A stretch of 63,435 nucleotides of DNA, the filler included, from Pelomyxa schiedti (taxonomy: Eukaryota; Protista; Evosea): NCBI GenBank assembly GCA_020536535.1. It is 14 parts of 14 records of this genome, joined end to end, with 100 filler letters (N's around TTAATTAATTAA, not from the genome) between each part and the next. Parts side by side here need not be neighbours in the genome. Positions count along the whole stretch, not along the records: positions 17,832 to 19,914 come from JAHLWZ010002148.1; 13 more parts are not named here. One strand, 5' to 3'. The notes beneath the pieces are model-generated. The model did not search any database. It was not told the DNA's origin and saw only the letters and a list, made by a program, of their open reading frames with translations. The translations under genes and the position numbers were made by a program. Shown piece after piece: positions 471 through 48,097 of the stretch (position 1 is the first letter of the stretch; every line of letters begins with the position of its first letter).

Positions 471-1574
471 TCAGTGTTTTGGTGATGGGGATTGAGAGGG
501 GCTCCGCTTGTTTGCTGGATGTTGATTGTGGTTCTTATGTTGCTGATGTGGTGGTTCAGGAGTGAGAGAAGGTGAAGGAACTGGTGGCATGCTGCCGGGA
601 AGGATCTGACCAGAGGGAGAGAGGTGGTGGAGCTGGTTGGAGCTCCAGTATTCGTTGTTGGACTTGATGCACTGAATCATGAGGGGAGTGGGGCACGCGG
701 CGCTGAACGTGGTCAGAAGCGGCTCCGNNNNNNNNNNNNNNNNNNNNNNNNNNNNNNNNNNNNNNNNNNNNNNNNNNNNNNNNNNNNNNNNNNNNNNNNN
801 NNNNNNNNNNNNNNNNNNNNNNNNNNNTCCACAATTCTGTCGCGCTATCATCTCCAAAGAAGTTTGGATTAAACGTCAGGGCCAAATCAAAGAAGTCGAG
901 TTGTCTGAACAGAACCTATTCCTTAACTTTAGCTCTCGAGGGGAGTACAGACCCCGGAGGGAGAAGTCGTACGTTAACAGTTTCGTGGATTTCGCTGAAG
1001 ATAACTTTTGATGGCAACACAAAGTTAGCCCAAACAACGACACGAGGTAATAAATGTCCAGTAATAACACACAAGTCAAACAAAAATGAACATAAACAAC
1101 AACAACAACAATAATAAAAGCCAAAGGGGATGGGCAAGTTGCACACGCACTGTCCGAAGTGCTGCTCATGGTGTCATCAGCCATCAGCGAGACCACGTTG
1201 GACGACGAAGTGTACCACACAAGCCACACCGAAACCGCGGTCGCGACGACGAGGCCGACCGACACGAGCACCGACCGCAGCACGCCCTTGTCCGTCGCCC
1301 GCGCCACCGCCTTGGCCATCTTGCGCGGCTTCCTCCCCAGCCTGCCTCCCCACCATGTTTTCGCTGCGGCGGCGCCTGTTGGCTGGCTTGACCCGCGCTC
1401 GCAGATGGTGGCCGACTGCGGGCGCCCAGGGGGCAGGCTCCACGTGGAGTTTGACACGGAGACTAGCAAGTCGTTGGATTTCGACTTGGAGGCCCCCAGG
1501 AGAGACTTGTCCTGGGGCTCGGGGGACCCGCTGGGCGTCGTGGCCGAGTTTGTGGTTGTCGCGGCAGTTGTCAT
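471..1574 (-). CDS. Membrane-anchored class I cyclic nucleotide phosphodiesterase, copy A (middle lost in the gap)
   Basis: First exon has TM1 VLRSVLVSVGLVVATAVSVWLVWY. Last exon EPLLTTFSAACPTPLMIQCIKSNNEYW matches copies B and C. The gap at 728-827 hides the core. Confidence 0.75.
728..827. other. 100-N scaffold gap (others: 8846-8945, 13945-14044, 45189-45288)
   Basis: Plain 100-N runs. At 13945 and 45189 about 120 bp left of the gap is repeated verbatim right of it, typical of unmerged contig overlaps. Confidence 0.93.
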
Positions 1575-10935: not shown

Positions 10936-12052
10936 CACGGTTGCTCTCGGCAAAGTGGATCAAATCGAATGTGTGAACCAGCCACTTGAGCATGTTCAGG
11001 TGCCCGCTTTCTGATGCTTCATGCACCAATGGGATCAGCAATATCTTGTTGCCTTGGTTGATTTGGAAGAAGCTCGAAAGGATCCACTTCAGAACATCCA
11101 AATGGCCCTTTACACAAACTTCCCTCATGATTTTAAACACACCCCTCTCACTCCAAAATTCCTCAGCCAGGACCGGTTCGTTTTCCATGCTGACAACTGA
11201 ATTCCAGTTCAGCAGCGATGGAACCTTGGAACAAGCATGGTAAGTTTGAACTGTGGGTGTGGGAAGAATACTTAAAACTTAAGAAGCTGCCAATAATAAT
11301 AATACAAGACAGATGGAACGTTCACATACCACGGCACCTGCCTGGGGGTCTGTTCCATTTCCGATTTCGCCAACCCCACATCGCACTGACGATGACGGTG
11401 GCCACAGCCACAGCGCCTTGTTGGTCCCCCCCTCCGCCTCCGCCTCCACGTCCACATCCACCCAACACCCACAGTTGTTTCCCACGAACGCCCTGGCGGC
11501 ACGCAGGTGGCCCCCGCGGCACAGCCCTGTCAGCACAGCCACCTGCTCCTTCGCCCGCCCCCGCTCCCGCTCCCGCTCCCTGCCCCGGTCCCTGTCGCTG
11601 CCCATCTCGCTCTCGCTCTCCCTCTGGGTCCCTGCTGGGCCGCCCTCCTGCTGGCTCCCACCCCTCCCGGTCCCCGCCCGCCTGGCTGCCTTGTCCCTCA
11701 CGATCCACGCGATGCACTTGGGGCACAGCGCCGCGGCGGCGTCCTCGATCGAGCGGAAGTGGGCGCTCAACGCGCGGTACTCGCGGTGCGTGGGCGACGC
11801 GGCGCGGCAGCACAGGGCCACGAGGGGGAACAGGGCCTCTCCCGCGCGCAGCAGGCACGACACCACGTCGTGGGCCAGGGGCTTGTTCCACCAGAGGGCG
11901 GCGCGCGCGGGGGCCAGCACCCACGGTACGAGGACCTGCTCCCACACCACTCGCGACACACCCACGATCCGCCGTTTCTCGGATTCTTGTGGATTGCCGG
12001 TAGTAGTTGTGGTTGTTGTGTTGGGGCCGCGGAGAGGCGTGGTAGATGACAT
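10936..12052 (-). CDS. Ankyrin-repeat protein with a lineage-type N-terminal region (3' truncated)
   Basis: LCRGGHLRAARAFV, VCVKGHLDVLKWIL, ASESGHLNMLKWLV. N-terminal SRVVWEQVLVPWV motif. Probable ATG at 12052 (MSSTTP). Confidence 0.78.
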
Positions 12053-12732
12053 TGGCACGAAAAGAATGATTATTCCGAGAACAAGCGGGCCCCCCTCACT
12101 ATTTCTTTTTTCTTTATCCCGCTGATTTTGATTTTCCAACAAGCCAAAAACAGCCATCAAGGGATGACCGTTGGTAGCAACAGGCATAACCAAGAAAACA
12201 GGGGCAAACAGTAATTAAGTGGACTGGGATTTGCAACAGCGAGGGAAGCAGAGTTGCTAGTGAGTCCGTGATCGTTCCCTTAAAACTTCTTTTTTTTTCC
12301 TTCTTCCTCTGTCGGGCTGTGTCGTAGATTCGGCAACAACGCTCTTGTGTGTCTCTTACTCCTGACACAACAAGGAGCACGTCACAGCCCACAGTCCAGC
12401 TGTCCTTGCGTCTTGGATGCACAATAAGGGAAAAACAATACCTTTCCTTCTGCTAACAGATGGTGTCAGTGCGGGTCCAGCACTGATGCTGCCGGGAGGC
12501 AGTATTCCTATCTTCGTGGGTCTCATGGTAGTTGGTAAGGGTAAGGTCCTCTCTGTTGGTTACCCTCTCTGACCTGTGCCCCAGTCTGCTATTGTCCTGT
12601 CGGATGGCTATGGTCCAATCTAACCTTGTTTGGACCCCCTTGGGACTTCTTTATATGGAGCCTCGTTGGAATTTGAATCGAAAGAAAAACAATAAGTGAG
12701 GGGGGTCCGAGAACAAGCGGTAGTGAGGGAAA

Positions 12733-15278
12733 ATGATCAATCCCATGGAGGGCGGAGGGAGCGGTTGTGAGGACGTCAAAACAGTTGCAGGGATGTGCAG
12801 GGGAGTGATGTCTCCCGATTACTCGGAGGCAGTGTCTGCGCTTGTCGAAATCAGAAAACGACTTGCTGCTGGTATGGGCCCGCAAATCACTTTGGAATTC
12901 CCCCCAATCACCTCCAGAGAATCCGCCGATTGCCGAGGTGTTGGCAAGTCCTGGTTGTGTTTTGAGAATCGTTCAGTTTCTTTCTGCTGTAACAGTTCCT
13001 TTTTTTGCTCTCATTCGCACATTTTTTTTATTGTGTGTGTATGGTTGACCATTTTCTCACACAGAGCGACAACACCAAATTGCAGTATGAAGCCCTTTGG
13101 GTCATCACAAATCGTAAGTCTAACTGATTTCCGGTCGATTCCTCTCTCTCACTCTTCTTTTCTGTCAGCCCTTCTGGGTTTGTGCCTAATTTCTAAAGTT
13201 TGCAGTGGAACTGATGCCAGACAAACACAGAAGGTTGTTGATTTTGGTGCGCTGCCTCAACTCATTGCCCTTCTTTCTTCTCCAGATTCCCTTGTCTGTG
13301 AGCAGGTTCTCCTTTTCTTTTTGATTGTCATGGTCCAAAATTGTGAACAGGCAGCATGGGCACTTGGGAACATCGAAGGAACCGGCCCAGAAATGCGCAA
13401 CGCAATTTTGGAACTTGGATTTATTCCCGCTGTTGTCAAGGCAATGCACACGTTCCAAGACAAACCCTCCCTGTTGAGAAATGCGGTAAGTGCGCACCCA
13501 TCTTCCTTTCCCCCAGTCCTCGTGTGCCCTCTGATTCCTATTTATCAGATTTGGGCATTCTCCAATGGATGCCGAGGGAAACCACCACCCCCTGACAAAT
13601 ACTTCATTCCAAGTGCGCACAACATGATTATTCTTTCTAGATTTACATGCTTATCTCCGTGCAGGTGCAACATTAAATATCTTTCCCACACTCGCAGCTC
13701 TCTTGCAGTGTTCAGATATGGACATTGTTGTCGATACTGCATGGTGAATTCATACCCCTATATTTTTTTTCTGGTTTTCCAACAGCAACAAAAAGGTCTC
13801 TCAGTTACTTAACTGACATGAATGAGTTCATCAAGCACATAACGGCTTCCGGAATATGTTCCACCCTTTCCAGAGTTCTCGACGTTTGTTTTCATTCCCA
13901 TTCTTTTCTCTTTGAAAACTCAATCAAAGTGCAACCAAGTCAATNNNNNNNNNNNNNNNNNNNNNNNNNNNNNNNNNNNNNNNNNNNNNNNNNNNNNNNN
14001 NNNNNNNNNNNNNNNNNNNNNNNNNNNNNNNNNNNNNNNNNNNNGAGTTCATCAAGCACATAACGGCTTCCGGAATATGTTCCACCCTTTCCAGAGTTCT
14101 CGACGTTTGTTTTCATTCCCATTCTTTTCTCTTTGAAAACTCAATCAAAGTGCAACCAAGTCAATGCTCAAACGCCAGTGCTACGCGCATTGGGAAACAT
14201 TTCCACTGGGAGGTTTCAACACAACTTCATGTAACTTGCGCACTCCTAATCACAAAATAACAGCGACGCCGACACTCAGGTTTTTGAAAATTAGAATAAT
14301 GCACCCCCCATGTTTTCATCCAACACCTTAATACTCCAGGCTGTGATTGATGCTGGAGTCTTGCCAAAATTGCTTCCCTTGTTTGTTTCCTCCATTCCTC
14401 GACCACCAGTTCTGTTCTTTTCCCTGATGTTGGCAACAACAGGTTGAACAGCCCCAAAAAAACTGTGAGGAAGGAGACATGTTGGCTTGTGTGTTGTTGA
14501 ATATCCCTACTTTATTGGAAAACTTACTGTTATTTCAGCTCTCCAACATCGCTGCCGGAACAAGGTGCAAATATCCGCAGAACTGATTGTCTCACTCACA
14601 CTTTTACAAGCGAACAAATCCGCTGCATGTTCGTGGAGCGTGGACTCTTTGAGAAGGTCATTGAACTCATTAATGGAAGTAACATGGACATCAAGAGAGA
14701 AGCTGCGTGGATTGCGTGCAACGCAGCGAGTTGTGGCTCAACGGATGTCACCAAGTATACTATCCCTTTTGGTTTCCTTTCTTTGCGGAAGTGTTAACCC
14801 CTATCACTGGTGGGAATAGAGCTCTGTTTACTCAGGGTGGTCTGGATGCTATGATTGATCTTATTGACTGCCTTAGCCTGAAGGATGATAAGGACACCAG
14901 CTTGCTCATGCACACTCTTGATGTCAGTACCATGTACTTAATTAATATTAATATAATTAATATTATTATTATTAATTATATTTATAATTATTATTTAATT
15001 ATACACAACTGACGCGCAACAAGGCCATTGACAGAGCAACGAAGATTGATGGAATGACAGGAGCCAAGAAATTCACACGGCTCCTGCTCAAACGGGATGT
15101 TGTAGACAAATTGATATGGATACGGAAACGAACTGAGAATAAACCCTTGGTTGCACATATCGACCAATTGATTTCCTTCCTGGAGGATGCTTATGGCAAT
15201 GGTACTGATGATGGTGATGACAAGAAACAAGAACCAAATGACAGTACCCAACAACGTGATTCCATGGACACGGAGTGA
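12733..15278 (+). CDS. Importin-alpha (karyopherin alpha)-like ARM protein, paralog 1, multi-exon, no IBB seen
   Basis: ENPPIAEVL, QYEALWVITN, AAWALGNIEG, IWAFSNGCRGKPPP, LSYLTD, PVLRALGNISTG, KETCW-LSNIAAG, DIKREAAWIACNAAS. Stop at 15278. Confidence 0.9.
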
Positions 15279-15375
15279 TTTAGTTGCATTTACAAGAAAA
15301 TTCATTTGATCATCATCAAAGTAAAACGACGTTCTGTTGATCTCCTATCTACAACACACCTCAGAATCAATTCTG

Positions 15376-17702
15376 ATGTCGGGGGCTGAGGTCGTGACGG
15401 CAATGGAAGGGGGTGGAAGTGGTGGTAATGACGTAAACACAGTTGCAGGGATGTGCAGGGGAGTGATGTCTACCGACTACCCTTCCGCAATGTCCGCGCT
15501 CGTCGAATTGAGAAAACGGCTTGCTGCTGGTGTGTCTACGTAGCCATAAATTACCTTAAACACAATGTCTTTCAGAGAATCCACCGATTGATGAGGTGCT
15601 GGACACTGCCGGCTGTGTCACTAGAATAATTCAATTCCTTACTGCTGTAACCTTTCCTTTTTTTTTTTTTTTTGTTTCATTTTGTGCTGACCAGATGAAA
15701 AACGCCAGAATGATAACACCAAATTGCAGTATGAGGCCCTTTGGGTCATCACAAATCGTAAGTCTGACTGACTCTTATGTCTTGGATTCATTCCTCTAAC
15801 TGTCGGCCTTCTGGGGGGGTTTGTTTGCTTAAGTTTGCAGTGGAACTGATGCCAGACAAACACGGAAGGTTGTTGATTTTGGTGCACTGCCCCAGATCAT
15901 TGCACTTCTTGCTTCTCCAGATTACCTTGTCTGTGAGCAGGTTCTCCCTTTTTTTTTTTTTTTTTGGTTTTAATTTCCTCCTTGGCAATTGTGAGCAGGC
16001 AGCATGGGCACTTGGAAATATTGAAGGAACTGGCACTGAATTGCGCAACACAATTTTGGAACTTGGATTTATTCCGGCTGTTGTCAAGGCAATGCACACA
16101 TTCCAAGACAAACCCTCCCTGTTGAGAAATGCAGTGAGTGATGCTATGCACATAGCCACCTTCTCTATTTAAATTCTTTTTCCTTCTTTTCTTGTATGAA
16201 TCACCAACAACAACCAGATTTGGGCATTCTCCAATGGATGCCGAGGGAAACCACCACCCCCTGACAAATACTTCATTCCAAGTGCGCACCACACAACACT
16301 ATTATCTATCTTTCTAAATTTACATCCTCTCTTTATGCAGGTGCAACATTAAATATCTTTCCCACACTTGCCGCTCTTTTGCAGTGTTCGGATATGGATC
16401 TTGTTGTTGATGCTACCTGGTTAATGAATTCAAAGTTTATTTATTTTACCAACAGCAACAAAAAGGTCTCTCTGTTACTTAACTGATATCACAGAGTTCA
16501 CCAAGCACATAATCGCTTCTGGAATTTGTGTCAATCTTTCCCAACTCCTCGACGTTTGTTTTCATTTCCATTCTTTCTCTCTGTAAACTCAAACAAAGCG
16601 CAACCAAATGAATGTGCAAGTTCCGGCACTGCGCGCATTGGGAAACATTGTCACTGGGAGGTATCAACAGTTTCACACAAATCACACTTTCTCTAACCAC
16701 AAAATAAAAGCCACGAGGACACTCAGGTTTTTGGAAATTAGAAAATACACCCCCCATGTTTTCATCCAACACATTTTAATACTCCAGGCTGTGATCGATG
16801 CTGGAGTGTTGCCAAAATTGCTTCCCTTGTTCGTTTCCTCCACCACCTGTTCTTTTCCCTGATGCCAACAACAGGTTGAAAAGCCCTAAAAAATGTCTGA
16901 GGAAGGAGACATGTTGGCTTGTGTGTTGTTTAATTTTCCTGTTTTATTGGAAAACTTACTCTTGTTTCAGCTCTCCAACATCGCTGCTGGAACAAGGTGC
17001 AAATACCCTCAGAATCTCATCCTACCCACTTACTAACACAACACATGCTGTTACAGTGAACAAGTCCGCTGCCTCGCAGAGGAACGTGGACTCTTTGAGC
17101 GGGTTATTCACCTCATGAGTACAGGTGCAACGGACTTTGACATCAGAAAGGAAGCTGCGTGGATTGTGTGCAACGCTCTGAGTGGTGGATCAGTATCTGG
17201 CTCCAAGTATGTGACCCCTTTTTTTTCCTTTTGGAGGTGTTAATTGGTGGGAATAGAGTTCTGTTTACTAAAGGTGCTCTGCATGCAATCATTGAGCTTA
17301 TTGACAGCCTCGGTGATAACGACACAAAGTTGCTCGCCAATGTTCTTGAAGTTAGTACTCCTCCGTTCTCCGTAATTGCATGCAGACACCAAAAATTTTA
17401 CTTTCAAATATTAATCAGAAACCATCCGCACACACAACTGACTTGCCACAAAGGCCATTGGGACTGCAATGAAGATAGACGAGATGACGAACTCCAACTG
17501 CTTCACACAGATGCTACTTGAAGAGGGTGTAGTGGCGAAACTGAGAAGGATAAAAAAGGAGAAGGGATCACTGGTCGAACGTGCTAAGAAGTTGATTTCC
17601 GATCTTGGGGACGCTGATGGAGATGATAGTGATGACGAGGAGGACAAGGAACAAGAACCAAGTGGTGGCAGCCAACAACAGGACTCAATGGAAACTGAGT
17701 GA
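15376..17702 (+). CDS. Importin-alpha-like ARM protein, paralog 2, multi-exon, no IBB seen
   Basis: Exon-for-exon paralog of 12733-15278 (VAGMCRGVMS, AAWALGNIEGTG, CRGKPPP, ALRALGNIVTG, DIRKEAAWIVCNALS) with an acidic tail. Confidence 0.9.
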
Positions 17703-17831
17703 TTGACTGAATAGAGTACTAAGATTTCCAANNNNNNNNNNNNNNNNNNNNNNNNNNNNNNNNNNNNNNNNNNNNTTAATTAATTAANNNNNNNNNNNNN
17801 NNNNNNNNNNNNNNNNNNNNNNNNNNNNNNN

Positions 17832-19914
17832 GTACCTTGACATTGCTGTGTTATTCAGCTGTGGCTCCATCATTCTGGTTATCTGTCAGCATGTTAGTGG
17901 AGCCAAATCCAAAGTCCCTGAGGAACAATTTCAGAAAGGTTTCAGCTTCAGTCTGTGGAAAATGTGAGAGGAAGAGAATGACAAGACAAGGGGCCAACCT
18001 AACATCATAGTCAGCAAGCAGGTCTGAAGTCTGCATTGGAATCAGTGCTGTGCTCTCCACTATCTATCATTCCAGTGAACTTGTGTATTATCATAATGTA
18101 CTGTTACATTGTTGTAACAATGTCTGGGCTGAGACTTCAAAACAATTGTGTGGTTGAAGTCCAGAGTCTGATTCCTTTGCCTTTGGGACTTCTGTGGGAT
18201 GAATGTCCTTTTTCCTCTTTTCTTTTCAATGGATGAAGGCTGATTGTGTTTCACCTATTCCTCTAATGGAACTTGTTGAAAGCAACACACAAAATCTTCA
18301 GAAAGTGACAGTATTGGTAGTGTTCAATCAGCCAAGCTTGTTAAAGTTCTTCTATGCACCATACATCTCCAATGCCTTTGTGTGATGGATCATGATCTAT
18401 GTCCAAAATTCATCAAATTGTTGGTGTGATAAACTAGTGGTGCTAGTGCTGAGGCACTAACTTGTGTGTATGTTGTGCAAGTGGTATCCCAGAAATCTGC
18501 CAACTGGTTTGTGGTTGGGTTTAGGGATTTAAGTACCCCTATTGCCACACCATCAAAGCTCTTTCTGCCATTCATGAAAAACACTGGGGTTCAGATTGCT
18601 TGCATTGTAATGTGGAGTGTGTTGTGCATTGATTGCATTGATGGTGTGTCTTTGAGTTGTTGGAGTTTGAGTGTAGGTGCTATTGCCCCCTCATTTCATG
18701 CATGCCATGAAATCAATGATTGTTTGTCTTACATCATGACCAAGGGGAGGTTGGGAGTAGAGAAAAACTGTTGGTAAATTGGGGGTTAATTGGCAGTGTA
18801 GATGCTGGGCTTATTCAAGGGATTGGCCTGTTTGTGATTGACAGTCTACACAAGTCTCTACCCCCACCAGGTATGTACTAGTGATGCTGTTCTTGTAGTG
18901 CTGGAGTAATGGCTTCAGTTGGACTGGGATTGGTAACAGCTGGTTGCCTTAAAGGTGCCCCAACCCCCACAGACCCTCTGGAAAGGGTAACTCTGGGGTT
19001 AGAGTGATAGGTTGTGTGTGGTTGGTAATTGGTTCTCCTTGTTGTCTCTGATTACTGCACCACAAGTGTTTGATGGAGTTTGATCTTCTTTTTGACATTT
19101 ATGTGGAAGGAGTGTGTTGATGGTGTTTTTGAATTGCATTTTTAATGTAGGTGCTGTAACCCCCCTTCTCCACCACATTCCATAGGCCTTCTGAACTGAG
19201 TGTGTGTACAAGAACATACTACAAATCCATTAGTAGAAAGATGTGAGTATAACACATACCTTCACATAGGTAGCAATGCAGAAATGTGAACATGTCAGCA
19301 ATACATCAAAGCAAGAAGACCAGCTTTGCATAAGTTCACCAAGCAGGAAATTACAAAGGAATTAGGTTATTCTCAAATTCCTACTGCTTGAGTGAGAAGC
19401 AAGTAACCAATGCATACTCCTTTGAATTGCACATACCAAGAAAAAACAAACACACAGTATTGACCAATTCTGTGGAGAAGCCACAACTGGGTCATTGGCA
19501 ACTAATGGGCATCAAAAAGAGATACAAAGGAATAGGCAAAAGCTGATTGAGCATACTTGTTGTAAGAAGCCATAGCCCAAAGTCAGAGCAGTGATAGGTA
19601 ATTTCCCAAGAAGGTACAGTACATAGGCTGACTCTAAGTGATGTTGAGAGGCTTGAACAAACATAAGGAAATACCAAAGATCTGAAGTGAGCAATTGTCA
19701 AATGAGGATGGGCTACTGCAGCACTGGAAACAAACCAAGCAGAAAGACACCATCTCAAAGCAATTATTGGTAAGAGGTGCACAGTGACTCTGCACTCTGT
19801 CAATCAAAATAATGTGAGGCTATCACATACCTTCATGCTGGTTGAAGAAGCCAAAGCACAAAGTCAGAGGTCATTATATGTGTAACAGAGGAACTGCTTT
19901 TCTCCAATCACAGA
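17832..19914 (-). pseudogene. CpG-free, stop-ridden relic of an unidentified and probably spliced gene or element
   Basis: No CG dinucleotide found by manual scan and no long ORF. Minus strand has GTATGT donor-like sites and hydrophobic peptide stretches (LWYFLMFVQASQHHLESAYVLYLLGKLPITALTLGYGFL). Confidence 0.4.
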
Positions 19915-29426: not shown

Positions 29427-31994
29427 ATGTCATTAGGGGTGCGTACCGTACTCGTTCACAACGCAAAGCAGACTGACGTCGATGGTGTGTACACAGGGCG
29501 TCTCGTCAACAACAAGCGAGACGGCAGGGGCAAGCTCACCTGGATCGACGAGGACGGCCAGCACGCCTACGACGGCCACTGGTGTGACGGCAAGATGCAC
29601 GGGCGGGGCCAGCGCACGTGGCCAGACGGCGGCGCATACGACGGCGAGTGGCAGAACGGGTGCGAGGACGGGTGGGGCGCGAGGCACCACCCCGACGGCG
29701 GGCGGTACGAGGGACTGTGGCGCCGCGGGCGCTGGGCCAGGGGGGCGTGGCACGACCAAAACGGCGTCGACGTGAAGGAGGGCGAGTGGGTGTGGGACGA
29801 CGCTGGAAAGACCTTCAAGCAGCAAGGATGGGGACTGTGGAGGAAGAAGATGGTCAAGGGTGATGATGATGGGAGGAGGAAGGCTGCCCAAGGTGCCACT
29901 ACTACTGCCACAACAGAGGTGACGGTGTACGATGGCGAGTGGAACAACGACCAGAGGCACGGGAACGGAATGTGGAGGTCACCAGACACGGGCACCATTT
30001 ACTGCGGTGAGTGGGACCATGATGAGATTAGCGGAACAGGGAGGATGCTCATTGGTGACCACAGCACACGCCACAACGACCCAGGAGGGAGCTACGTGGG
30101 TGGCATGAAGGATGGAGAGTTTCATGGGGAGGGTGTGAGGGTGTGGTCAAACGGTGACAGGTATCAGGGAAACTGGGAGAATGACAAGGAGCACGGGAAC
30201 GGGACGAAGAGGTGGGCCAGGGATGGGTCATCATTCACTGGTGTGTGGGAGAGGGGTACACCAGTCAATGGCACAATGGAGTGGCCAAACGGTGACATGT
30301 TCACTGGCACATTCACAGAAGAAGTTGCTGAACAACAACGTGGGGGTGAAATGAGGAGATACAGTGGCGAGGGTGACCTGTCACTCTCCTTGCAGTCCAC
30401 AGACAGACTTTTGGCTGGGGGTGAAAGTAACAAATTGAAGGGGAGTTTGAGAGGCAACACATTCCACGGAGCTGATGGTGTTGCTTTGCATGTGATGGGA
30501 TCATCACTGCTGCAGTGGGGCCACAGCCAACTCATCAAGGTGCTTTTGCTCCTCTCACAAACATAGCAAACAACTAAAAGAAAAAACACAGAAACTGAAA
30601 GATGAACACAACAGAGAGAGGGAAATGGAAAGGAATCAATGGAATACTGAAAGAACGCAACTTGAGAATCTGTTGAAAATGGCAGAAAATAAAATCAAAG
30701 CATGTTTGTAAATATTTGTCGCACCATCTTGTTTCACTCTGACAACAACAAAACAGGAACTCCACACCAAGCAAATTGAAGAGGAAGAAGGTGACAGTTT
30801 GCTTGCAGTTCACAGTGCACTTACTGAAACGCCCCAACAGCAAGGTCCATCAGAGGCACTGTCAGAGTTGTCCACAGCCTTCAAGATGGCGACCAAGTAT
30901 CGATCACAGTTGAAAAAAGCAGCTCCTCTGTTGGTCTCACTTGAGGAATCACTTTCTGGGCTGAAGCAGCTCCTTGAAAGTTCCACAGAAAGGAACCAAG
31001 CACTTAAAGTTCACGTGAGAGACCTGTCAAATCTGAAGGAGGCACTTGAAAAGGCAGTCAAAGAGTCAGATAAGAGGTGTCAGGATATCCTTGGGAAAAA
31101 ATTGACAGTGGAGAGCAGTGAGTCAGAGATACAGCAATGCTCGAGGAACATCTCATCATTGATGAAGAAACTTCTTGGAATAAAGCCATCTTCATCAGCC
31201 AACAATGAAGAAGAACAACGAGGAGCAATAGCCATTCCTTCCCAAGGTAAACATCACGTGCCCGATTTTTCTGTACATACCTTACACAGACATAAACAAC
31301 GTGATGACTCTCAAACCTTGGTCGCTTCTGAAATCTCTGGAACCTCCTCCACACTCCTCCCCCACTGCCCTCTCTTTGATGTTGAGGGAGATCACTGACA
31401 CAGTGTTGCCGACACAAGGAGCGTGCAACAGCTTTGCCAGATGCCTCAATGTCGTTGATCAGCACACAGTGTTACACAAGGAGTGCAACAACCAGGCAGC
31501 ACTGGGTCAGAGGCTCCACGAGGAAATACAGGAACTCCTCAACTCTTGCCAGGGGCTCAACGAGTCGTACTCACTCAAGTACATGGTAATGCGGGCACTT
31601 GAGGGTGATGAGAAGTTCATGACACACCCTGACGTGTGGTCTCAGCTCTCTGAGTTGCTCCCTCGTGCTCAACAGTCAGTAGTGGATGTCACATTGGCCA
31701 AGTGCACAGCATCATCAACACGTGGCATAAGTGCAACAACAACTACAATGCCGACAAAGCCAGCGCGCACTGTCTCTGTTTTTCCATCCAGCCATGTTTT
31801 GTGTGTGGTATGTGAGGAGAGGGCACAGGACACACAGTTTCAGCCTTGTGGCGACTGTGTCTGCTGTTCTGAGGTATTGCCAAAACAACAAGAAAAACTC
31901 TCTCACACATGTACAGTGTGCAGGAATTGTGAAGAGGTGCCCACATTGCCGTTCTCCAATCCAGAACAGAATCAACATCTGTTCTTCTTCGTGA
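29427..31994 (+). CDS. MORN-repeat / coiled-coil / RING protein (variant RING, His to Asp)
   Basis: 379-aa MORN-rich first ORF. The coiled-coil region is paralogous to 20907-22091. RING is CVVCEERAQDTQFQPCGDCVCCSE|CAGIVKRCPHC, stop at 31994. Confidence 0.87.
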
Positions 31995-32668: not shown

Positions 32669-32860
32669 TTGTCCGAGAATCCATTTGAACATCGCAGCCT
32701 TTTAACCCAATCGCACAACCGCTCTGCGAGATTTTACACACTCCCTTTTTATCCCCTTACAACAACGACCAAACAAACAAGAGAACCCTCTTTATTCTCT
32801 TCACTCTCACTCGTTTTCTTCCTCTGTGGGACTTATTCTCGAGCCCACAGAAGCTAACAC
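32669..32860 (+). repeat. About 190-bp repeat, inverted partner of 38925-39106
   Basis: Both read TGTCCGAGAATCCATTTGAACATCGC...TGTGGGACTTATTCTCGA...CCCACAGAAGCTAACA on opposite strands. Confidence 0.85.
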
Positions 32861-37293: not shown

Positions 37294-37669
37294 CAGGAAC
37301 GACCAAAACCTGGGCATCCCCGGGACAACACATTCTGAGGTGTGCTTGTGAAAACACTATTATAGTGCTCACAAGGCGCTCACAGAGTCCCAGATGTCAA
37401 GAGAGTTGAACAAAAGGCAAGTAACACTGCAAGCTCAGGTCACTGGTAAGCCCCAATGAATGTTTTTAATATCAAACCCCACTCAGCTGCTCAGAAGGAG
37501 CTGCAACAGGTCAGGACTGAACTACAGATATGCATCTGTGGTAAGTGTTTATTGAGTTATTCCTCAAATTTATGCTTGCCAGAAAAAGAGACCTTGATGG
37601 GCCAACTGCACAAGCTTGAGGAGACTACTAAATGTATTTAGCCCAATCACTTCCTTTTTTGGCTCCAAA

Positions 37670-38260
37670 ACAGTGATCACCAGGATCTCAGTAGCAACAA
37701 CGTACTCATGGATATTGATGGAACTCCAAAAATATGTGATTTTGGTACTGTGCTTTCTTCTTTGATGCAAGCTAACCTCCTCCAAAGGAGTATCCCACGG
37801 AATGAACACCCAACAGCCACAATCTATTGTTCCTGGTACGTCAGTCCACATGGCTCCACAGATGTTCACAGATCACTATTCAATTGAAGGTTATACCTTT
37901 TGAATACATATATACCAATTGATCCACAACAGGGGATGTGTGGGGGTTTGCCATTCTGTTGACTGAAATATTCAATGGTGAAATTGTTGACTCAATTTTC
38001 GACACATTGCCTCTGGACTTACATGCAACTTTTGTTAGTGAACAGAAGGTGATGCTTTCACAATCAGATGCTGAAGGTTTTTTCCAATCTGTCTTACCAT
38101 CCTTCCTGTGACTTAACTGTATCAATCAGAGGTTGACATACTGTGCCTCCGCCAATCAATGCAAGTCACCATCGCCCACTGCCTCAGCCGCAGGCTTGAA
38201 TCATTGAAAAAAGTTAAACACCTTCTGACCTCCCCACAATCGCCACTACTGTCTGCCGGG
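37670..38260 (+). pseudogene. Degenerate TKL-type protein kinase C-lobe
   Basis: HQDLSSNNVLMDIDGTPKICDFG, GTSVHMAPQMF, GDVWGFAILLTEIFNG. HRD has become HQD, APE has become APQ, and there are frameshifts and stops. Confidence 0.72.
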
Positions 38261-38649
38261 CCAATCCCCAATGCAGTAGCCAAACTCTTGTTCATGATCC
38301 TTCGTTCATGCTTCTCGATTCTCGGTGTGGTTTCCATCATTCACAAGTCAATGCTAATCAATATGGACAGAGAAGAACCGGATTTCTTTCACTGTGATTT
38401 CCAAGCTGCTGTTCTGCTGCTGCACTGAAGCTACTGTCAGTGACATTTCAAAAAACGCCACAATTAACACCCTACCCCCACACCAACAAAGACCAACAAT
38501 GGTGACAGATGACCAAGTCACAGACAGCATCACACACTGGCTGTCAGCCCTCACCCCTTTCATACGATATGCTTCACAACGACTGTAAGCCTGTTATTAG
38601 AAAAGCATTGCCTATTTCTGAGCCACCTGTGGGGAAACACCCTGTTCCA

Positions 38650-39106
38650 CCCCAAGTACTTAAAGCAAACTTTTTTTTTTCTTGCCTGAAGTTGAAAACC
38701 AGGCCACATCATGGAGAGGTGGGAGTTAGTGTAGCCCAGTGGAGTGGTGTGTAGTGCCAAGGTGAAGTGGGTGGAGGCAGAAGGAAGGCCTGGCATTGCA
38801 CTCTGTTTGTCAGCCCTTCAGGCATCCAGGCCCTGTTGTTGTTGAGTGGGGTGCTAATAAAAATGGAATGTACCTTGTAATAGATTGTGGGCAGGGTGAC
38901 CTTACCACCTAAATAATATCTTGAGCTGTTAGCTTCTGTGGGATCGAGAATAAGTCCCACAGAGGAAGAAAACGAGTGAGAGTGAAGAGAATAAAGGGTT
39001 CTTGTCGTTGTTGTGTAAAGGGATAAAAAGGGAGTGTGTAAAATCTCGCAGAGTGGTTGTGCGATTGGGTTAAAAGGCCGCGATGTTCAAATGGATTCTC
39101 GGACAA
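38650..39106 (-). repeat. Composite copy of the dispersed non-coding repeat
   Basis: 38650-38705 matches 24175-24231 (T run followed by GCCTGAAG), 38750-38930 matches 29040-29220, and 38925-39106 matches 32669-32860. Confidence 0.8.
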
Positions 39107-40449: not shown

Positions 40450-41588
40450 CACCTCAATTCCCTTTTTCCAGAAGTCATCACTTTCGCTTTTGCATCATTC
40501 CCCCCCTCGGGGGCCACACGCTCGCTGTCCCAACACGCGTTGTTACTCCTCGCGTCGGGATCGCGACTTCTTTCGCGATGGTGGCACCGTGTTCATCTCG
40601 AAGTCTTCAAACCGTTGTGGTCGTCTGGTGCGTCGCCTCGGCCGCGTATTTGTGGGAGCGACCGGGTCATCAGCGCTTGGTCTCTTCTGCGATGTAGCCT
40701 CTTCCTCCAGGCTTGGGTCAAAGTCATCATCCACCTCTGGTGCCTCAGTGGGTGTGTTCTGTCCACCTTTGTATTCCTTCATCTGGCTCACATGAATTAG
40801 TTGTGTGAGAGCAGCTCCCCTTTCGTTTTCAGGTGCTGCCTCTTGCCTCATTTTTTCTTTTTCCAGTGATATGCGGGCAAAACCCTGTGCTTGCCTGAGC
40901 CCATGGAGCCAGGTAGCCCCCCATAATGGGGTCTCCTTAATGCTGGCGTTAATGCTAGTTCTGTAGGCCAGCAGGACTGGTTGTAGGAATTGATCCCATC
41001 GCTGTTTATGCTTGTCAGCATATATGCGGAGCATACCAATGAGTGTCTTGTTGAACCTTTCAGTTTTACCGTTGGTGAAGTGATCCACCATGACGAATAT
41101 GTATTCATTTCCCTGATTCGTCCTTGTTAACTTTCCCACATAGTCTATCCCCACAATGTGGAGATAGTATATATATCTGTTGCCATCTCTGGCCACCAAT
41201 ATTGCAGCTTAATCTTGTGGTAGGGTTTGTCAAACGAGACATCCTCTTGTCCCTGCAGAATCTGCAATATAACTTGTATCCCCTGTCCAACTTTTGCTGT
41301 GTTGCTAAGGCACTTGTATCAGCCTCCACCATCAGTAGGGGTTGGACTTCTTTCTGTGGGAAGTGCGACAGTGTGTGGGGCAGGCTTCTCTTTCTTGGCC
41401 AAGGATGTTAATTTGTAGGTTGGGGAAATTTCTCAGCTGGTAAGATGAACTTCATTAGCTAGTTACCAGCTGTGTGGCAGACTGCAATCCTAGGCTTGGT
41501 TTTGACTGTCCTGTCACCAGTAACTTCACTGCCACATCACAAACCACTGACAACTTGTTGGGAGTGGCCCAGTTGCAACTGCAGAATC
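40450..41588 (-). mobile_element. Ty3/gypsy-type LTR retrotransposon remnant (degenerate integrase, polypurine tract, start of 3' LTR)
   Basis: YWWPEMATDI zinc-finger linker, then IVGIDYVGKLTRTNQGNEYIFVMVDHFT joined directly to NGKTERFNKTL..WDQFL..VLLAYRTSINASIKETP (central rve core deleted). Purine tract GAGGGGGGGAA followed by TG at about 40496-40508. Confidence 0.82.
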
Positions 41589-43179: not shown

Positions 43180-46179
43180 TCAGGGTTCTGTTTTTCTGGG
43201 GGTGTGTTGACGGCAACGATTTGGGGAAACAAAGTGGCTTGTGCTCTCGGCAAAGGCCCCGCACAGGAAACAGAACCGAACCCGGCAATTCACGCACTTG
43301 ATATCTGCAGTAGTGGGTGTGAGAGCAGTGTGGCAATTAGGGCGGAGGGAAGAGAGGTATGTATACACACGGTTGTTTGTGGTGAGTTTGGTGTGAACCG
43401 CTTTGCACCCAGGGCACCGCTTCTTCTCGATGTAGCCGCCTCCTTGCAGTGCCAGCTGTTGCTCAATTTGTTCTGTAGAGTGCACTATCCTCGCTTGTGC
43501 CACTTTCAGCGGGGCGAGGTGGACACCTTGGCTTCGTTCATTGGACCCGTCGTACGAGAAGAGCTCGCATGCCCCGGGTGTCTGGAAGTGTGCATATCCC
43601 TCGATTTTGGCTTGGCAGCGGTAGCAGAATTCTTTCTGGCATGAAAAGCACTTCATATCTGGCCGGTATTTTGAGTAAACTCTGCACAATTATGAGCGGT
43701 AACATACGGTTACATCCGACGGTCTTCTCCACAGAAGCCTGGCAGTGCGGGCAAGTCCGGGTATTGTGTTGTAGCCACTGAAGTTTTGGAGGTGTTAGAT
43801 AATAGTTATAGGTGGTGAAGAAAGCAACTTCCAAATTGGCAAGTTCAGCCTGGAGTCTCGCTTTCCTGACCAGCACATCACTGGTCTCAGGTTCTGCTTC
43901 CAGAGCGGCCAGCCTGTGTGCTGCACCTCCCCCACACGGTATTGATACTTGTTTGCGTTAGTGCTCGGTACAAAGTGTGGAAGGGTCCGTACCGGGGTGC
44001 CATGCATGGAGGCACCTGATGCAGAAGGAGAATTTGCATCCACTGCACTTTCCGAGTTGTGTCTCTTTGTTTACAACAACTGCTGTATTACATCGGGGAC
44101 ACCATTTCACGTCTGCTAAGTTTCAGAGGACAACCAAGTACAATGCAGAACGTTTGTACCTCCCATTCCGGCAAGTGATTGATTCAATAGCAACGTTTCA
44201 TACTTCTCGTACAAAGCATCAGACACCAATTCAGCTACAAGATTAGGGTGCAGCATGGCTGCGCACTTTCTTTCTGGGCACCTGATGAGATGTGGCGTGC
44301 CTAGTTATATTAGACGTGGAAAGTTAGAAAAAGCCAGCGGGACCTGAAGTGATGTTTATTGTGCACATTTGTGATGCACATGGCCGGCAGAATCTATGCT
44401 CACATATTCCACGCATGCTGACAAAGTCTGTTGCTGGAGTATCCATACAACATATTGGGCACACATGACTGGTAGCCATGAATCGATCTTCCACTTCACT
44501 ACTGTTGTATCTATTGACGCTTATTGATACAAATGAAAATAGCAATATGTGGATATACGAGTGAAGAAAAGGCAGAATGACTGCCATACTAGAATATGGA
44601 TCTCCAAGCATTGTAGATACTCTACAAGTTTGTAGTTGATTCATGTGACATTGACAGTACTGATGGAACCTTACCTGGGGTCAATTCTTTCATTACTGCT
44701 GTGTGTTGCAAAGGTCTCTGAGAGGTGAGTCATAGTAGTGACACCAAGAACATGTGCCAGTGAGTCATCTTCCAACCACTGTAACCACTGGAAGAGAATG
44801 TCTTCTCCGGGGTTGCTCTCCCACATCTCATCCATTCTTTTGCAAATGGCCGTCAGTTGAACAGCTGGAAGTATCATAAAAAGCAAAACATGGAGTGGTG
44901 GGGGAAAACATACCGTTCAGAAACCAGCTCCTCACAGTGAACTTTGGAGGGACGTGGGAAGGATAAGCCGGAGGAAACACAACCTCCAGTGACAATGGCG
45001 GTAAATATCTGACTGTGACACCGCGAATTGTGGTTCTAGCAGCCGAAGCCGATGACTCTGGCGGCTGCGCTGCAATGATGTTTAGTACGCCTACTTTCTG
45101 GTCCGGGACCTTCTGTGCTATTGAGATTGTAACACCAATGTACATCCCAATGCAGCCACTCCAACTGCACATGTTTTTGTTGGCCTCCNNNNNNNNNNNN
45201 NNNNNNNNNNNNNNNNNNNNNNNNNNNNNNNNNNNNNNNNNNNNNNNNNNNNNNNNNNNNNNNNNNNNNNNNNNNNNNNNNNNNNNNNCGCTGCAATGAT
45301 GTTTAGTACGCCTACTTTCTGGTCCGGGACCTTCTGTGCTATTGAGATTGTAACACCAATGTACATCCCAATGCAGCCACTCCAACTGCACATGTTTTTG
45401 TTGGCCTCCCGAGATTGCCCCGAGGAAGATGGTGTATGCGCCGTCGCCGTCGCGGAAGCGCTGCTTTTTGTTGGACTAGTGTCGTTAATATTTGCTACTG
45501 TAGATGATGATGATGATGAACTAGATGTGGAGGTAGATGCTGATGGCATTGTTGTGGTAGTTGTACCCGTGGATGCATCTTCCACAGGAGTTGTAGTATC
45601 ATGTGTAGTAGTAGTAGTTGTAGTGGTGGTAGTGGTGGTGGTAGTAGTACTCCCACTGTTGGTGGTGGTGGTGGTGGTTGCTGTTGCTGCTGTTTTTGGG
45701 GCTGATGGCAGGCACAGGGGGGTGGTCGGGGGCGCGTACTTGTAGTTGGGCACGGGCGTCACCACCCGATCCGTGAAGATGGACAGCACCGCCTCCACCT
45801 CGTCCCGCTGCCGCCCGTGGTTGCTCACAACTGTGTCCAGCGTCACCCCCGGCACCCACTCGAACACGTCCGCTTCCGCCCCCTCCGCGTCCCCGTCCGC
45901 GGTGTCGTCGGCGTGCGCGGCCACGGCCATGGACATAGAGGCTACCATGGCGGAGGCGCCGGGCATCGGCGCCGATGTCGACGGCGGCGGGGGAGGAGGA
46001 GATGTCGACTTGGTGGCCGCTGCCTTTGTTTGCGTGGGGGACGACGACGATTGTGGGTGCTTGTTGTTGTTGCTGTTGCTGGTGTGTGGGGGCGGTGGAG
46101 TTTTACTCCTGGGTTGTTGCTGAGGGGTGGGCTTCTTGGCCTTGCCTTTGGACGTCGTTGTGCGTGGCTTCGTGCTCAT
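43180..46179 (-). CDS. RWD-RBR E3 ubiquitin ligase (RNF14/ARA54-like), multi-exon
   Basis: RWD: QRDEVEAVLSIF, YLPPLSLEVVFPPAYPSHVPPKF, DEMWESNPGEDILFQWLQWL. RING1: CPICC..CEHRFCRPC. RING2: CPHCQASVEKTVGCNRM..CQKEFCYRC. Extra C-terminal Cys cluster CPGC..CVNCRVRFCFLC. Confidence 0.85.
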
Positions 46180-46596: not shown

Positions 46597-46708
46597 NNNN
46601 NNNNNNNNNNNNNNNNNNNNNNNNNNNNNNNNNNNNNNNNTTAATTAATTAANNNNNNNNNNNNNNNNNNNNNNNNNNNNNNNNNNNNNNNNNNNNCTTT
46701 AAGGAGAC

Positions 46709-48097
46709 ATGTCGGCAGCAAAAGGAGGTGTGGCGATGGTTGTTGACGACACCACGTCGACGGGCAGTGTGTACACTGGACGTATGGTAAACGGCACACG
46801 TGACGGCAGTGGAACGTGCAAGTGGACAAACGGTAAGACATACGTTGGGGGGTGGAAAAACGGCCAGATGCACGGCCGAGGTGTCTACACGTGGACCACT
46901 GGCGTAACCTACGAGGGTGAGCGGCACAAGGGCTGCGCCGATGGGTGGGGTGTGCTACGCCACCCCGATGGTGGATCTTATGAGGGGCTGTGGAGGGATT
47001 CCCAATGGAAAAGGGGAACGTTCCACCACTGCAACAGAGTGGACGTGTGGGATGGTGAGTGGGTGTGGAATGCAACGGCAAGTCAGTGTGAGATGAAGGG
47101 GTGGGGTGTGCAAAGGAAGAGGACCAACAACAACACTGGAACGGGCAACGGTGGTGGGGCCACGGTAATGGAGACAGTGTATGAGGGTGGGTGGGACAGG
47201 GACCAGTGGCACGGTGTGGGAACGTGGAGGTCACCTGATGGATCGGGTGCCATCTACCATGGTCAGTTCGATCACGGCAAGAAATGTGGAACAGGGAGGA
47301 TCCTGTTTGGCGATGGTGGAGGCAACAACAACAACAACAACAGCCAAGGAGGTGGAGGGAGTTACGTTGGGGAGTGGAAGGATGACATGTTCCATGGTCG
47401 GGGTGTGAGGCTGTGGGCGAACGGTGACAGGTATGATGGCCAGTGGGTGTGTGGCATGGAGAACGGTGAAGGAACGAAGATGTGGTCAAGGGATGGGTCA
47501 TCATTCACAGGGTTGTGGGAGAGTGGTGTGCCAACAAAGGGGACAAGGAGGTGGCTGAATGGTGACACGTTTGAAGGCACGTTCAATGGTGGTGATGGGA
47601 GGAATGGATGGGAGTGCCGTGGTGAGGGTGTTGCAACACTGTCATCACCATCATCCATTCTTGTGAAGGGTACCCTCAACAACAACCGTTTTCAAAGTGG
47701 GAACTTCTCAGAAGTGCAACATCTGATGGGATCATCACAGTTTGAACACCATCTCCAGATTGAGGTGTGTGTTGTTTTGTTTATCCCTCTTTGTTTGGGT
47801 AACAAAGAAAACAAAAAAACAGAAACTGAAGAAGGAACACACTGAAGAAAAAAGTGGGCTGAAAGCAAAAATGGAAGAAGAAATGAGAGCAGCTGAAAAG
47901 GAGTGGCAGGTGTATAATTAAGTACTTATTATACTTATTATGTATAATTATTATTAAGCCATTTTCATATGTGCCTTCTTCCACAGAAAGCCACAGAGAG
48001 AAAAAACCAACAGCATGCTGAACAAATCAACGAGGTGAACAAAAACCTTCAACAATTGCAAGACCATCTTCACAAGAAACAAGAAGAGGAGGAAACA
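46709..48097 (+). CDS. MORN/coiled-coil protein, close paralog of 25296-27932 (3' truncated)
   Basis: 378-aa MORN ORF sharing SPDGSGxIYHGQF and RWxNGDxFEGTF, with the same intron position (IE|gtgtgt) and coiled-coil exons. Confidence 0.87.

What the first reader, a model, noticed from the sequence alone, without database searches (positions are those of the whole stretch)
17832..19914. A 2,083-bp contig with zero CpG: signature of methylation-driven hypermutation
Seen: a line-by-line scan found no CG dinucleotide, although GC, TG and CA are common. At roughly 40% G+C I estimate some 80-90 would be expected. Gene 5' ends elsewhere in the window (1200-1560, 11500-12000, 29450-29950, 45750-46050) are CpG-rich. 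Reading frames are broken by many TGA/TAG stops. Established: 5mC deamination converts CpG to TpG/CpA. Inference: this organism has a targeted CpG-methylation silencing system that has run to completion on this relic, acting like a RIP-style genome defence and leaving CpG-island-like promoters.
Basis: partly seen in the sequence, partly recalled or inferred. Interest (0 to 1): 0.75.

Follow-up and report, generated by a model that had tools for sequence, protein, structure and literature searches.

The report
CpG-stripped repeat copy in giant amoeba
A 2-kb copy of a repeated, intron-bearing sequence in the amoeba Pelomyxa has no CG pair left while a sister copy keeps some, likely because methylated cytosines decayed, which would point to an unstudied DNA-methylation system in this group.

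Summary
Observation confirmed: 17832-19914 is one whole contig with 0 CG against 90 expected; the TG+CA excess (58) matches the CG deficit (56) relative to the other contigs. It is not a contaminant: it is a degenerate copy of a multi-copy Pelomyxa schiedti family with short GT-AG introns on the minus strand, spliced in RNA contigs, with relatives on 78-, 29- and 4-kb records. No protein family was identified. Against one sister copy (244 bp) all 7 CG sites are TG/CA here, while non-CpG transitions are symmetric (9 versus 7). But only 7 of 32 differences are at CpG, 94-95% identical host duplicates keep their CGs, and RIP indices are negative, so a RIP-style defence is not supported. Best reading: long-lasting CpG methylation of this copy with deamination (about 0.7); 5mC and a Pelomyxa DNMT are not shown, though Mastigamoeba has four DNMT1. 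The 'islands' are GC-rich 5' coding ends: CpG O/E 0.85 versus 0.46 downstream (11 of 12 long ORFs), a possible footprint of gene-body methylation, which was reported absent in Acanthamoeba. Known kind of process, new lineage.

The parts
17832..19914 (-). CpG-free contig: degenerate copy of a multi-copy, intron-bearing Pelomyxa family
   Evidence: 0 CG; several differing copies, spliced RNA contigs; annotated relatives
19831..19914 (-). exon (continues beyond the contig end); stops in all three frames, identical in RNA-type contigs of X3 and X5
   Evidence: table 8 (0 other letters)
19790..19830 (-). 41-base GT-AG intron
   Evidence: joint 19789-19831 in X3, X4, X5; sequence
19675..19789 (-). 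exon
   Evidence: start of model protein P0009
19634..19674 (-). 41-base GT-AG intron
   Evidence: joint 19633-19675 in X3
19557..19633 (-). exon; one X3 spliced contig differs from it at 1 base
   Evidence: table 8 record 14
19502..19556 (-). 55-base GT-AG intron
   Evidence: joint 19501-19557 in X3, X4
19437..19501 (-). exon, followed by a GTATGT donor; sister transcripts go on with an exon that this copy lacks (inferred)
   Evidence: loose ends at 19454 and 19405
19219..19259 (-). likely 41-base GT-AG intron (borders inferred)
   Evidence: joint 19219-19281 with 7 letters between in X3, X4; sequence
17884..19218 (-). long rearranged segment: internal diverged duplication (spacing about 474-479), about 167 bases missing at 19041 relative to an X5 contig, different upstream junction at 18707 relative to two sister copies
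   Evidence: D1, D4; table 8 record 24; loose ends
18725..18968 (.). stretch compared base by base with sister copy A: its 7 CG sites (18752, 18803, 18816, 18824, 18833, 18910, 18941) are TG or CA here
17836..17883 (-). exon; the contig ends in the first four bases (GTAC) of the next intron
   Evidence: joint 17883-18024 and loose ends at 17849 in X1 versus X3, X4

Best explanation
The contig is a broken copy of a repeated, intron-bearing Pelomyxa sequence that has lost every CG, likely because it was CpG-methylated for a long time and 5-methylcytosine deaminated to thymine. Shown: zero CG, matching TG/CA excess, membership of a host family, one-way CG-to-TG/CA differences against a sister copy, no loss of CHG or CpA. 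Inferred: a DNMT1-type enzyme kept this copy methylated on both strands; freed from selection, each CpG decayed at roughly 10-20 times the rate of other C-to-T changes until none was left; copies differ because methylation or age differed between insertions. Also inferred: with no CG left the mark has nothing to act on, which would fit the weak RNA signal from this copy or a near twin. What the family once encoded (host gene or spliced transposon) is unresolved.
For: 0 CG against 90. TG+CA 402 against 344 at the host ratio, an excess of 58; CG expected at the host ratio 56. Copy A (X1 depth 38.6, also in X2) has 7 CG in 244 bases, all TG/CA here; non-CpG C/G transitions 9 of 118, reverse 7 of 117; 7 of 7 CpG changes are transitions against 9 of 17 at other C/G, p=0.033. 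Position 18941-2 shows CG, TG and CA in different copies. At 17963 six X1 contigs hold CG where this copy has TG; 17876 and 17933 likewise. Copy C has 0 CG over its aligned part and CA where A has CG in the unaligned flank. Host paralogue pairs differ at 277 of 865 CpG C/G sites against 568 of 5139 others. Mastigamoeba balamuthi has 4 DNMT1 and Acanthamoeba methylates CpG on repeats and silent genes (PMC12344493). Minimum rate ratio 15-19, or 8-10 at the upper limit of the background rate.
Against: No 5mC data and no Pelomyxa DNMT seen (not testable here). Because the contig was picked for having no CG, 'all CGs of the sister are lost' is forced; only the transition share and the asymmetry are independent, and they rest on 244 bases. 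Only 7 of 32 listed differences to copy A are at CpG; 7 of 16 A>G/T>C changes against a background of 0.33 is not significant (p=0.26); in the first laying 5 of 18 (40 of 79 rows shown). Copy A is itself depleted (7 of 17 expected) and a sister copy has 0 CG over 19722-19914 (7.9 expected), so the family as a whole is CG-poor. In host paralogues the CpG rate is only 1.8 times the CpT rate. CpG depletion occurs in protists with very little 5mCG, such as Naegleria (PMC12695648). RNA contigs identical to this copy argue against present silence, though DNA can be in such libraries.
Confidence: 0.7

Rival explanations
1. A RIP-like, homology-triggered enzyme converts CpG to TpG in repeats in one or a few episodes.
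For: Loss is total, not partial; minimum rate ratio 15-19 is at or above the roughly tenfold figure recalled for vertebrates; other copies are also stripped in part. CpG-biased C-to-T in repeats is known in basidiomycetes and Tuber (PMC4352252).
Against: Host duplicates of 94% (744 bases) and 95% (679 bases) identity share 31 of 37 and 14 of 19 CG sites; copy A, about 87% identical, keeps 7 CG in 244 bases; RIP indices negative. PMC4352252 itself assigns CpG signatures to methylation followed by deamination, not RIP. Caveat: the two host pairs may be alleles or assembly duplicates.
Confidence: 0.1
2. CG is lost without 5mC: another CpG-directed modification or deaminase, or general G+C-to-A+T decay with CG avoidance in an already CG-poor family.
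For: Non-CpG C-to-T changes are common (9 of 118); sister copies are CG-poor too; O/E rises with G+C in the window (rho 0.35); CpG depletion without much 5mCG is reported for Naegleria (PMC12695648).
Against: Zero CG is far below any G+C class in the window (mean O/E 0.49 at 40-45% G+C; P(0)=2e-10 even at 0.25); the loss is one-way and by transition; the nearest relative with data has DNMT1.
Confidence: 0.16
3. The contig is a contaminant or an amplification or assembly artefact.
For: No similarity to the other contigs of the window; its composition is an outlier; no 24-base match in metagenome or viral contigs says nothing either way.
Against: Relatives are annotated on P. schiedti records of 78417, 29334 and 4349 bases; pieces with 0 differences occur in X1, X2, X3, X4 and in X5 of another study; spliceosomal GT-AG introns rule out the prokaryotic symbionts. 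The neighbours of the relatives were not seen.
Confidence: 0.04

Closest known systems
Repressive CpG methylation of repeats and silent genes in Acanthamoeba castellanii (DNMT1/DNMT3; PMC12344493, section 6 read)
   Same: Amoebozoan; CpG context only; targets repeats and silent genes
   Different: There 5mC was measured (1.3% mCG) and gene-body methylation was absent; here only the mutational footprint is seen, it is total on one copy, and host reading frames are CG-poor away from their 5' ends
CpG-biased C-to-T decay of transposon copies in Microbotryum, Melampsora, Puccinia, Tuber (MIP-like, Masc2-type Dnmt1; PMC4352252, passages read)
   Same: Copies of one family differ in CpG loss; proposed mechanism is methylation then deamination
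   Different: Different kingdom; the element here is intron-rich and not shown to be a transposon; no trinucleotide preference can be read from a sequence with no CG left
Repeat-induced point mutation (RID, Neurospora type)
   Same: C-to-T load in a repeated sequence
   Different: CpA/TpG is enriched here, TpA low; near-identical duplicates are spared
Gene-body plus transposon methylation in Amoebidium appalachense, animals and plants (PMC11244446, passages read)
   Same: CG-rich 5' ends and CG-poor gene bodies in the flanking host genes; repeats hit harder
   Different: Only composition supports it here; 12 ORFs from few families; G+C falls along most of the same genes

Membership tests
5mC-driven CpG decay of a repeat (MIP-like / DNMT1) | CpG lost with matching TpG/CpA gain | tested here: met
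   0 of 90; excess 58 against deficit 56
5mC-driven CpG decay of a repeat (MIP-like / DNMT1) | sequence is repeated | tested here: met
   several differing contigs per site in X1, X2; 3 other annotated P. schiedti proteins and 1 unnamed
5mC-driven CpG decay of a repeat (MIP-like / DNMT1) | CpG transitions exceed other transitions between copies | tested here: met
   7 of 14 CpG bases against 9 of 118 (partly forced by selection); 7 of 7 transitions against 9 of 17, p=0.033; one 244-base stretch
5mC-driven CpG decay of a repeat (MIP-like / DNMT1) | 5mC present on CG-bearing copies | not testable with these tools
   no modification data
5mC-driven CpG decay of a repeat (MIP-like / DNMT1) | DNMT1/3/5 encoded by the host | not testable with these tools
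   no whole genome held; relative Mastigamoeba has 4 DNMT1, no Pelomyxa row
RIP (RID-dependent) | CpA/TpG depleted, TpA raised | tested here: not met
   TpA/ApT 0.69, (CA+TG)/(AC+GT) 1.49; thresholds recalled
RIP (RID-dependent) | all duplicates above about 80% identity and 400 bases are hit (recalled rule) | tested here: not met
   94-95% identical host pairs keep shared CG; copy A keeps CG
RIP (RID-dependent) | RID/Masc1 enzyme and a premeiotic stage | not testable with these tools
   no genome, no life-cycle data
Transposable element or endogenous virus | recognisable transposase, RT, integrase or capsid domain | tested here: not met
   no Pfam family in six frames; minus-strand frames also blank in NCBIfam and PHROGs and two of them in PDB; decay and introns lower sensitivity
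Transposable element or endogenous virus | terminal repeats or target-site duplication | tested here: inconclusive
   both ends of the element lie outside the contig; no terminal repeat inside
Gene-body methylation (flanking host genes) | CpG O/E high at 5' end and low in the body | tested here: met
   0.85 against 0.46, 11 of 12 ORFs, p=0.002; codon position 3-1 only 0.95 against 0.49; families not independent; GpC also falls in the 3 MORN ORFs
Gene-body methylation (flanking host genes) | 5mCG on transcribed gene bodies | not testable with these tools
   needs EM-seq or native nanopore

The most novel reading that the evidence does not exclude
Pelomyxa has an animal- or plant-like CpG methylome, the first in Amoebozoa: gene bodies methylated with bare 5' ends, and repeats methylated so densely that single copies are driven to zero CG, lose the mark's substrate and are transcribed and spliced again.
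Probability: 0.3. Interest if true: 0.65.

Novelty: new member of a known kind. Interest (0 to 1): 0.38.

Why it matters
CpG decay of methylated repeats is textbook, so the contig alone is no new mechanism. It matters as the first sign I could find of cytosine methylation in Pelomyxa or any archamoeba besides a DNMT1 count, a lineage whose parasitic member Entamoeba has only DNMT2. If the 5'-to-3' CpG fall in host genes reflects gene-body methylation it would add an amoebozoan case to a pattern called sparsely distributed and reported absent in Acanthamoeba, which bears on whether it is ancestral. Both points are cheap to test on the public assembly and one native-DNA run.

Tried and rejected
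Ty3/gypsy gag-protease reading by eye of the minus frames: rejected; no Pfam support, the frame needs several TAG/TAA stops, and RNA contigs show introns. Protein identity: minus frame over 17832-19232 found nothing among 950 candidates of 256-818 aa (other lengths not searched); full HMMER search with another minus frame gave only 4 hits, all this family; no Pfam in those 4; the third minus frame and the plus frames were not searched against the large collections, and the language-model atlas was not used, so a distant identity stays open. A spliced frame with only TGA stops (4 in 113 codons) hints at an old coding frame, but it is the best of three and weak. The annotated proteins of 93-224 aa change frame between copies and are probably not a real product (inference). 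A list of ten 'window-specific' sites was hand-picked and left out rows in the opposite direction (19713, 19751, 19776, 19793); not used. Exact look-up of six host ORFs found none. One 24-base pattern had no match in metagenome or viral contigs. Earlier scan notes: none by place or sequence. Contig depths were not used as copy number or expression. Literature searches without a relevant paper: Pelomyxa+DNMT+methylation 0, Pelomyxa+cytosine methylation 1 unrelated listing, Archamoebae+DNA methyltransferase 0, Physarum+CpG+deamination+retrotransposon 0, Physarum+5-methylcytosine 5 listings not read; the library lacks most subscription papers, so older Physarum work (recalled only) is not covered.

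Full report
Observation. The window is a string of contigs joined by linkers; 17832-19914 is one whole contig. It has 0 CG against 90.0 expected at 41.9% G+C, GpC 0.94, TpG 1.58 and CpA 1.59. The other 17 segments have CpG O/E 0.32-0.99, the next longest CG-free gap is 402 bases, and 1 of 191 300-base tiles elsewhere has no CG. Chance is excluded even at O/E 0.25 (P 2e-10). TG+CA number 402 against 344 at the ratio of the other contigs, an excess of 58, and 56 CG would be expected at their ratio. CNG is 0.89 against 0.96.

Host. No whole genome is held. A long ORF elsewhere in the window had 5 hits, all labelled Pelomyxa schiedti, the best at 96% identity. A full HMMER search with one minus frame of the contig, stops read as X, gave 4 hits: P0009, labelled Pelo_18774 on a 2083-base record and matching this contig's own spliced frame, Pelo_7185 on a 78417-base record, Pelo_3376 on 4349 bases, and an unnamed protein on 1611 bases. 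A search with Pelo_7185 added Pelo_4531 on 29334 bases (99-317 aa only). The contig therefore belongs to a P. schiedti family; I did not see what flanks the other copies.

Anatomy. Five runs hold the stretch. Contigs of X3, X4 (RNA) and X5 (kind not on record, another study) skip 19790-19830, 19634-19674 and 19502-19556, which are GT-AG introns of 41, 41 and 55 bases on the minus strand; further joints mark a likely intron near 19219-19259, an exon at 17836-17883 and an intron starting at the contig end. Sister copies hold sequence that this copy lacks (an exon after 19437, about 167 bases at 19041) and have a different junction at 18707; this copy has a diverged internal duplication. The first exon has stops in all three frames and is identical in X3 and X5 contigs, and the annotated proteins change frame between copies, so the expressed copies do not look intact either. 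No family was found in Pfam for six frames, in NCBIfam or PHROGs for the three minus frames, in PDB for two of them, or among 950 candidates for the long segment. A published description of a P. schiedti genome gives 7.43 introns per gene, 98.4% GT-AG (PMC8887013, sections 5 and 19 and passages read).

Paralogue test. The first laying showed 40 of 79 difference rows; 5 of 18 A>G or T>C rows were at TG/CA, no more than background. A second laying on 18690-18990 listed 38 rows. Copy A (34 differences reported, 32 listed) has 7 CG in 244 bases, 17 expected; all 7 are TG or CA here. Non-CpG transitions are 9 of 118 one way and 7 of 117 the other. That all 7 are lost is forced by the choice of contig; what is not forced is that 7 of 7 are transitions against 9 of 17 at other C/G sites (p=0.033) and that one site shows CG, TG and CA in three copies. 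Against this, 7 of 16 A>G/T>C changes at TG/CA is not significant (p=0.26), most differences are not at CpG, copy C has no CG in its aligned part, and another sister has none over 19722-19914 (7.9 expected). If 30-60 CG were lost while other C-to-T changes reached 8%, the CpG rate was at least 15-19 times higher, or 8-10 times at the upper limit of that background; a roughly tenfold ratio in vertebrates is recalled.

RIP test. TpA/ApT is 0.69 and (CA+TG)/(AC+GT) 1.49, the opposite of CpA-type RIP. Host duplicates of 94% and 95% identity share 31 of 37 and 14 of 19 CG sites, though they could be alleles. Other broken stretches in the window are depleted but not stripped: O/E 0.55 for the contig with an integrase-like frame (label by eye, no Pfam hit), 0.40 for a PKS/NRPS remnant, 0.23 at 37300-38900. 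So the wipe-out is copy-specific, not a rule for every duplicate.

Host genes. In 23 overlapping paralogue alignments C/T differences affect 277 of 865 CpG sites and 568 of 5139 others; the CpT context reaches 18%, so the excess is modest. In all 12 ORFs of 300 codons or more, the first 399 bases after the first ATG have pooled O/E 0.85 and the rest 0.46 (higher in 11 of 12, p=0.002); at codon position 3-1 0.95 against 0.49. Six of the 12 belong to two families, starts are assumed, introns may be included, G+C falls along most of them, and GpC also falls in the three MORN ORFs.

Silence. Contigs with 0 differences from this copy occur in X3 (151 and 556 bases), X4 and X5, and an X3 contig spliced at 19633/19675 differs at 1 base of the 77-base exon. 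Contigs cannot show level or strand, and DNA can be in RNA libraries, but a spliced near twin means that 'silenced relic' is not established.

Literature. PMC12344493 (sections 6 and 7, passages, supplementary table rows): Acanthamoeba has CpG methylation on repeats and silent genes and lacks gene-body methylation; Mastigamoeba balamuthi is listed with 4 DNMT1, Entamoeba with DNMT2 only, Pelomyxa not listed. [quoted passage not shown] PMC4352252 (passages): CpG signatures in fungal transposon copies are assigned to methylation followed by deamination, not RIP. PMC11244446 (passages): gene-body methylation is sparsely distributed. PMC8136499 (passages) has no mention of methylation or CpG. Searches for Pelomyxa or Archamoebae with methylation terms gave nothing relevant; bioRxiv supplements and most subscription papers were not visible.

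Verdict. The feature is real and native. It most likely records long CpG methylation and deamination of one degenerate copy of a repeated, spliced family (0.7); a RIP-like mutator (0.1), a non-5mC cause (0.16) and contamination (0.04) are the rivals. It is a new member of a known kind, with a testable lead to gene-body methylation in an amoebozoan. Interest 0.38.

Noticed in passing
window:40543-41500: Minus-strand frames look like a deleted Ty3/gypsy integrase (label by eye from recalled motifs; no Pfam or PDB hit); CpG O/E 0.67 over 40543-41208 and 0.25 over 40900-41500.
   Followed up: partly
window:33650-35960: Stop-broken minus frame with Pfam ketoacyl-synthase (above cut-off) and AMP-binding (below cut-off) matches: a PKS/NRPS remnant, O/E 0.40.
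   Followed up: partly
window:29042-29223, 32669-32859, 38743-39106: Two short repeats of about 185 bases (85% and 91% identical) lie inverted relative to adjacent halves of 38743-39106; possibly a small mobile element.
   Followed up: no
window:54363-58900: Three tandem paralogous ORFs of a family whose 5 hits were all P. schiedti hypothetical proteins; each has a CG-rich 5' end and CG-poor body.
   Followed up: partly
window:20907-32200 and 46703-47845: Several MORN-repeat-like genes, some followed by a RING-like end (by eye), with steep 5'-to-3' falls in CpG and also GpC.
   Followed up: partly
window:1-9623 and 12727-17700: Tandem or repeated copies of a phosphodiesterase-like gene (by eye) and of an armadillo-repeat, importin-alpha-like gene (Pfam Arm), 73-95% identical.
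   Followed up: partly
window:41689-43073: Contig without a long ORF that holds an imperfect tandem repeat, visible as a repeated motif in translation; O/E 0.53.
   Followed up: no
window linkers, e.g. 17732-17831: Contigs are joined by 44 N, a 12-base stop-in-all-frames spacer and 44 N; runs of 100 N are scaffold gaps. The spacers are not biology.
   Followed up: yes
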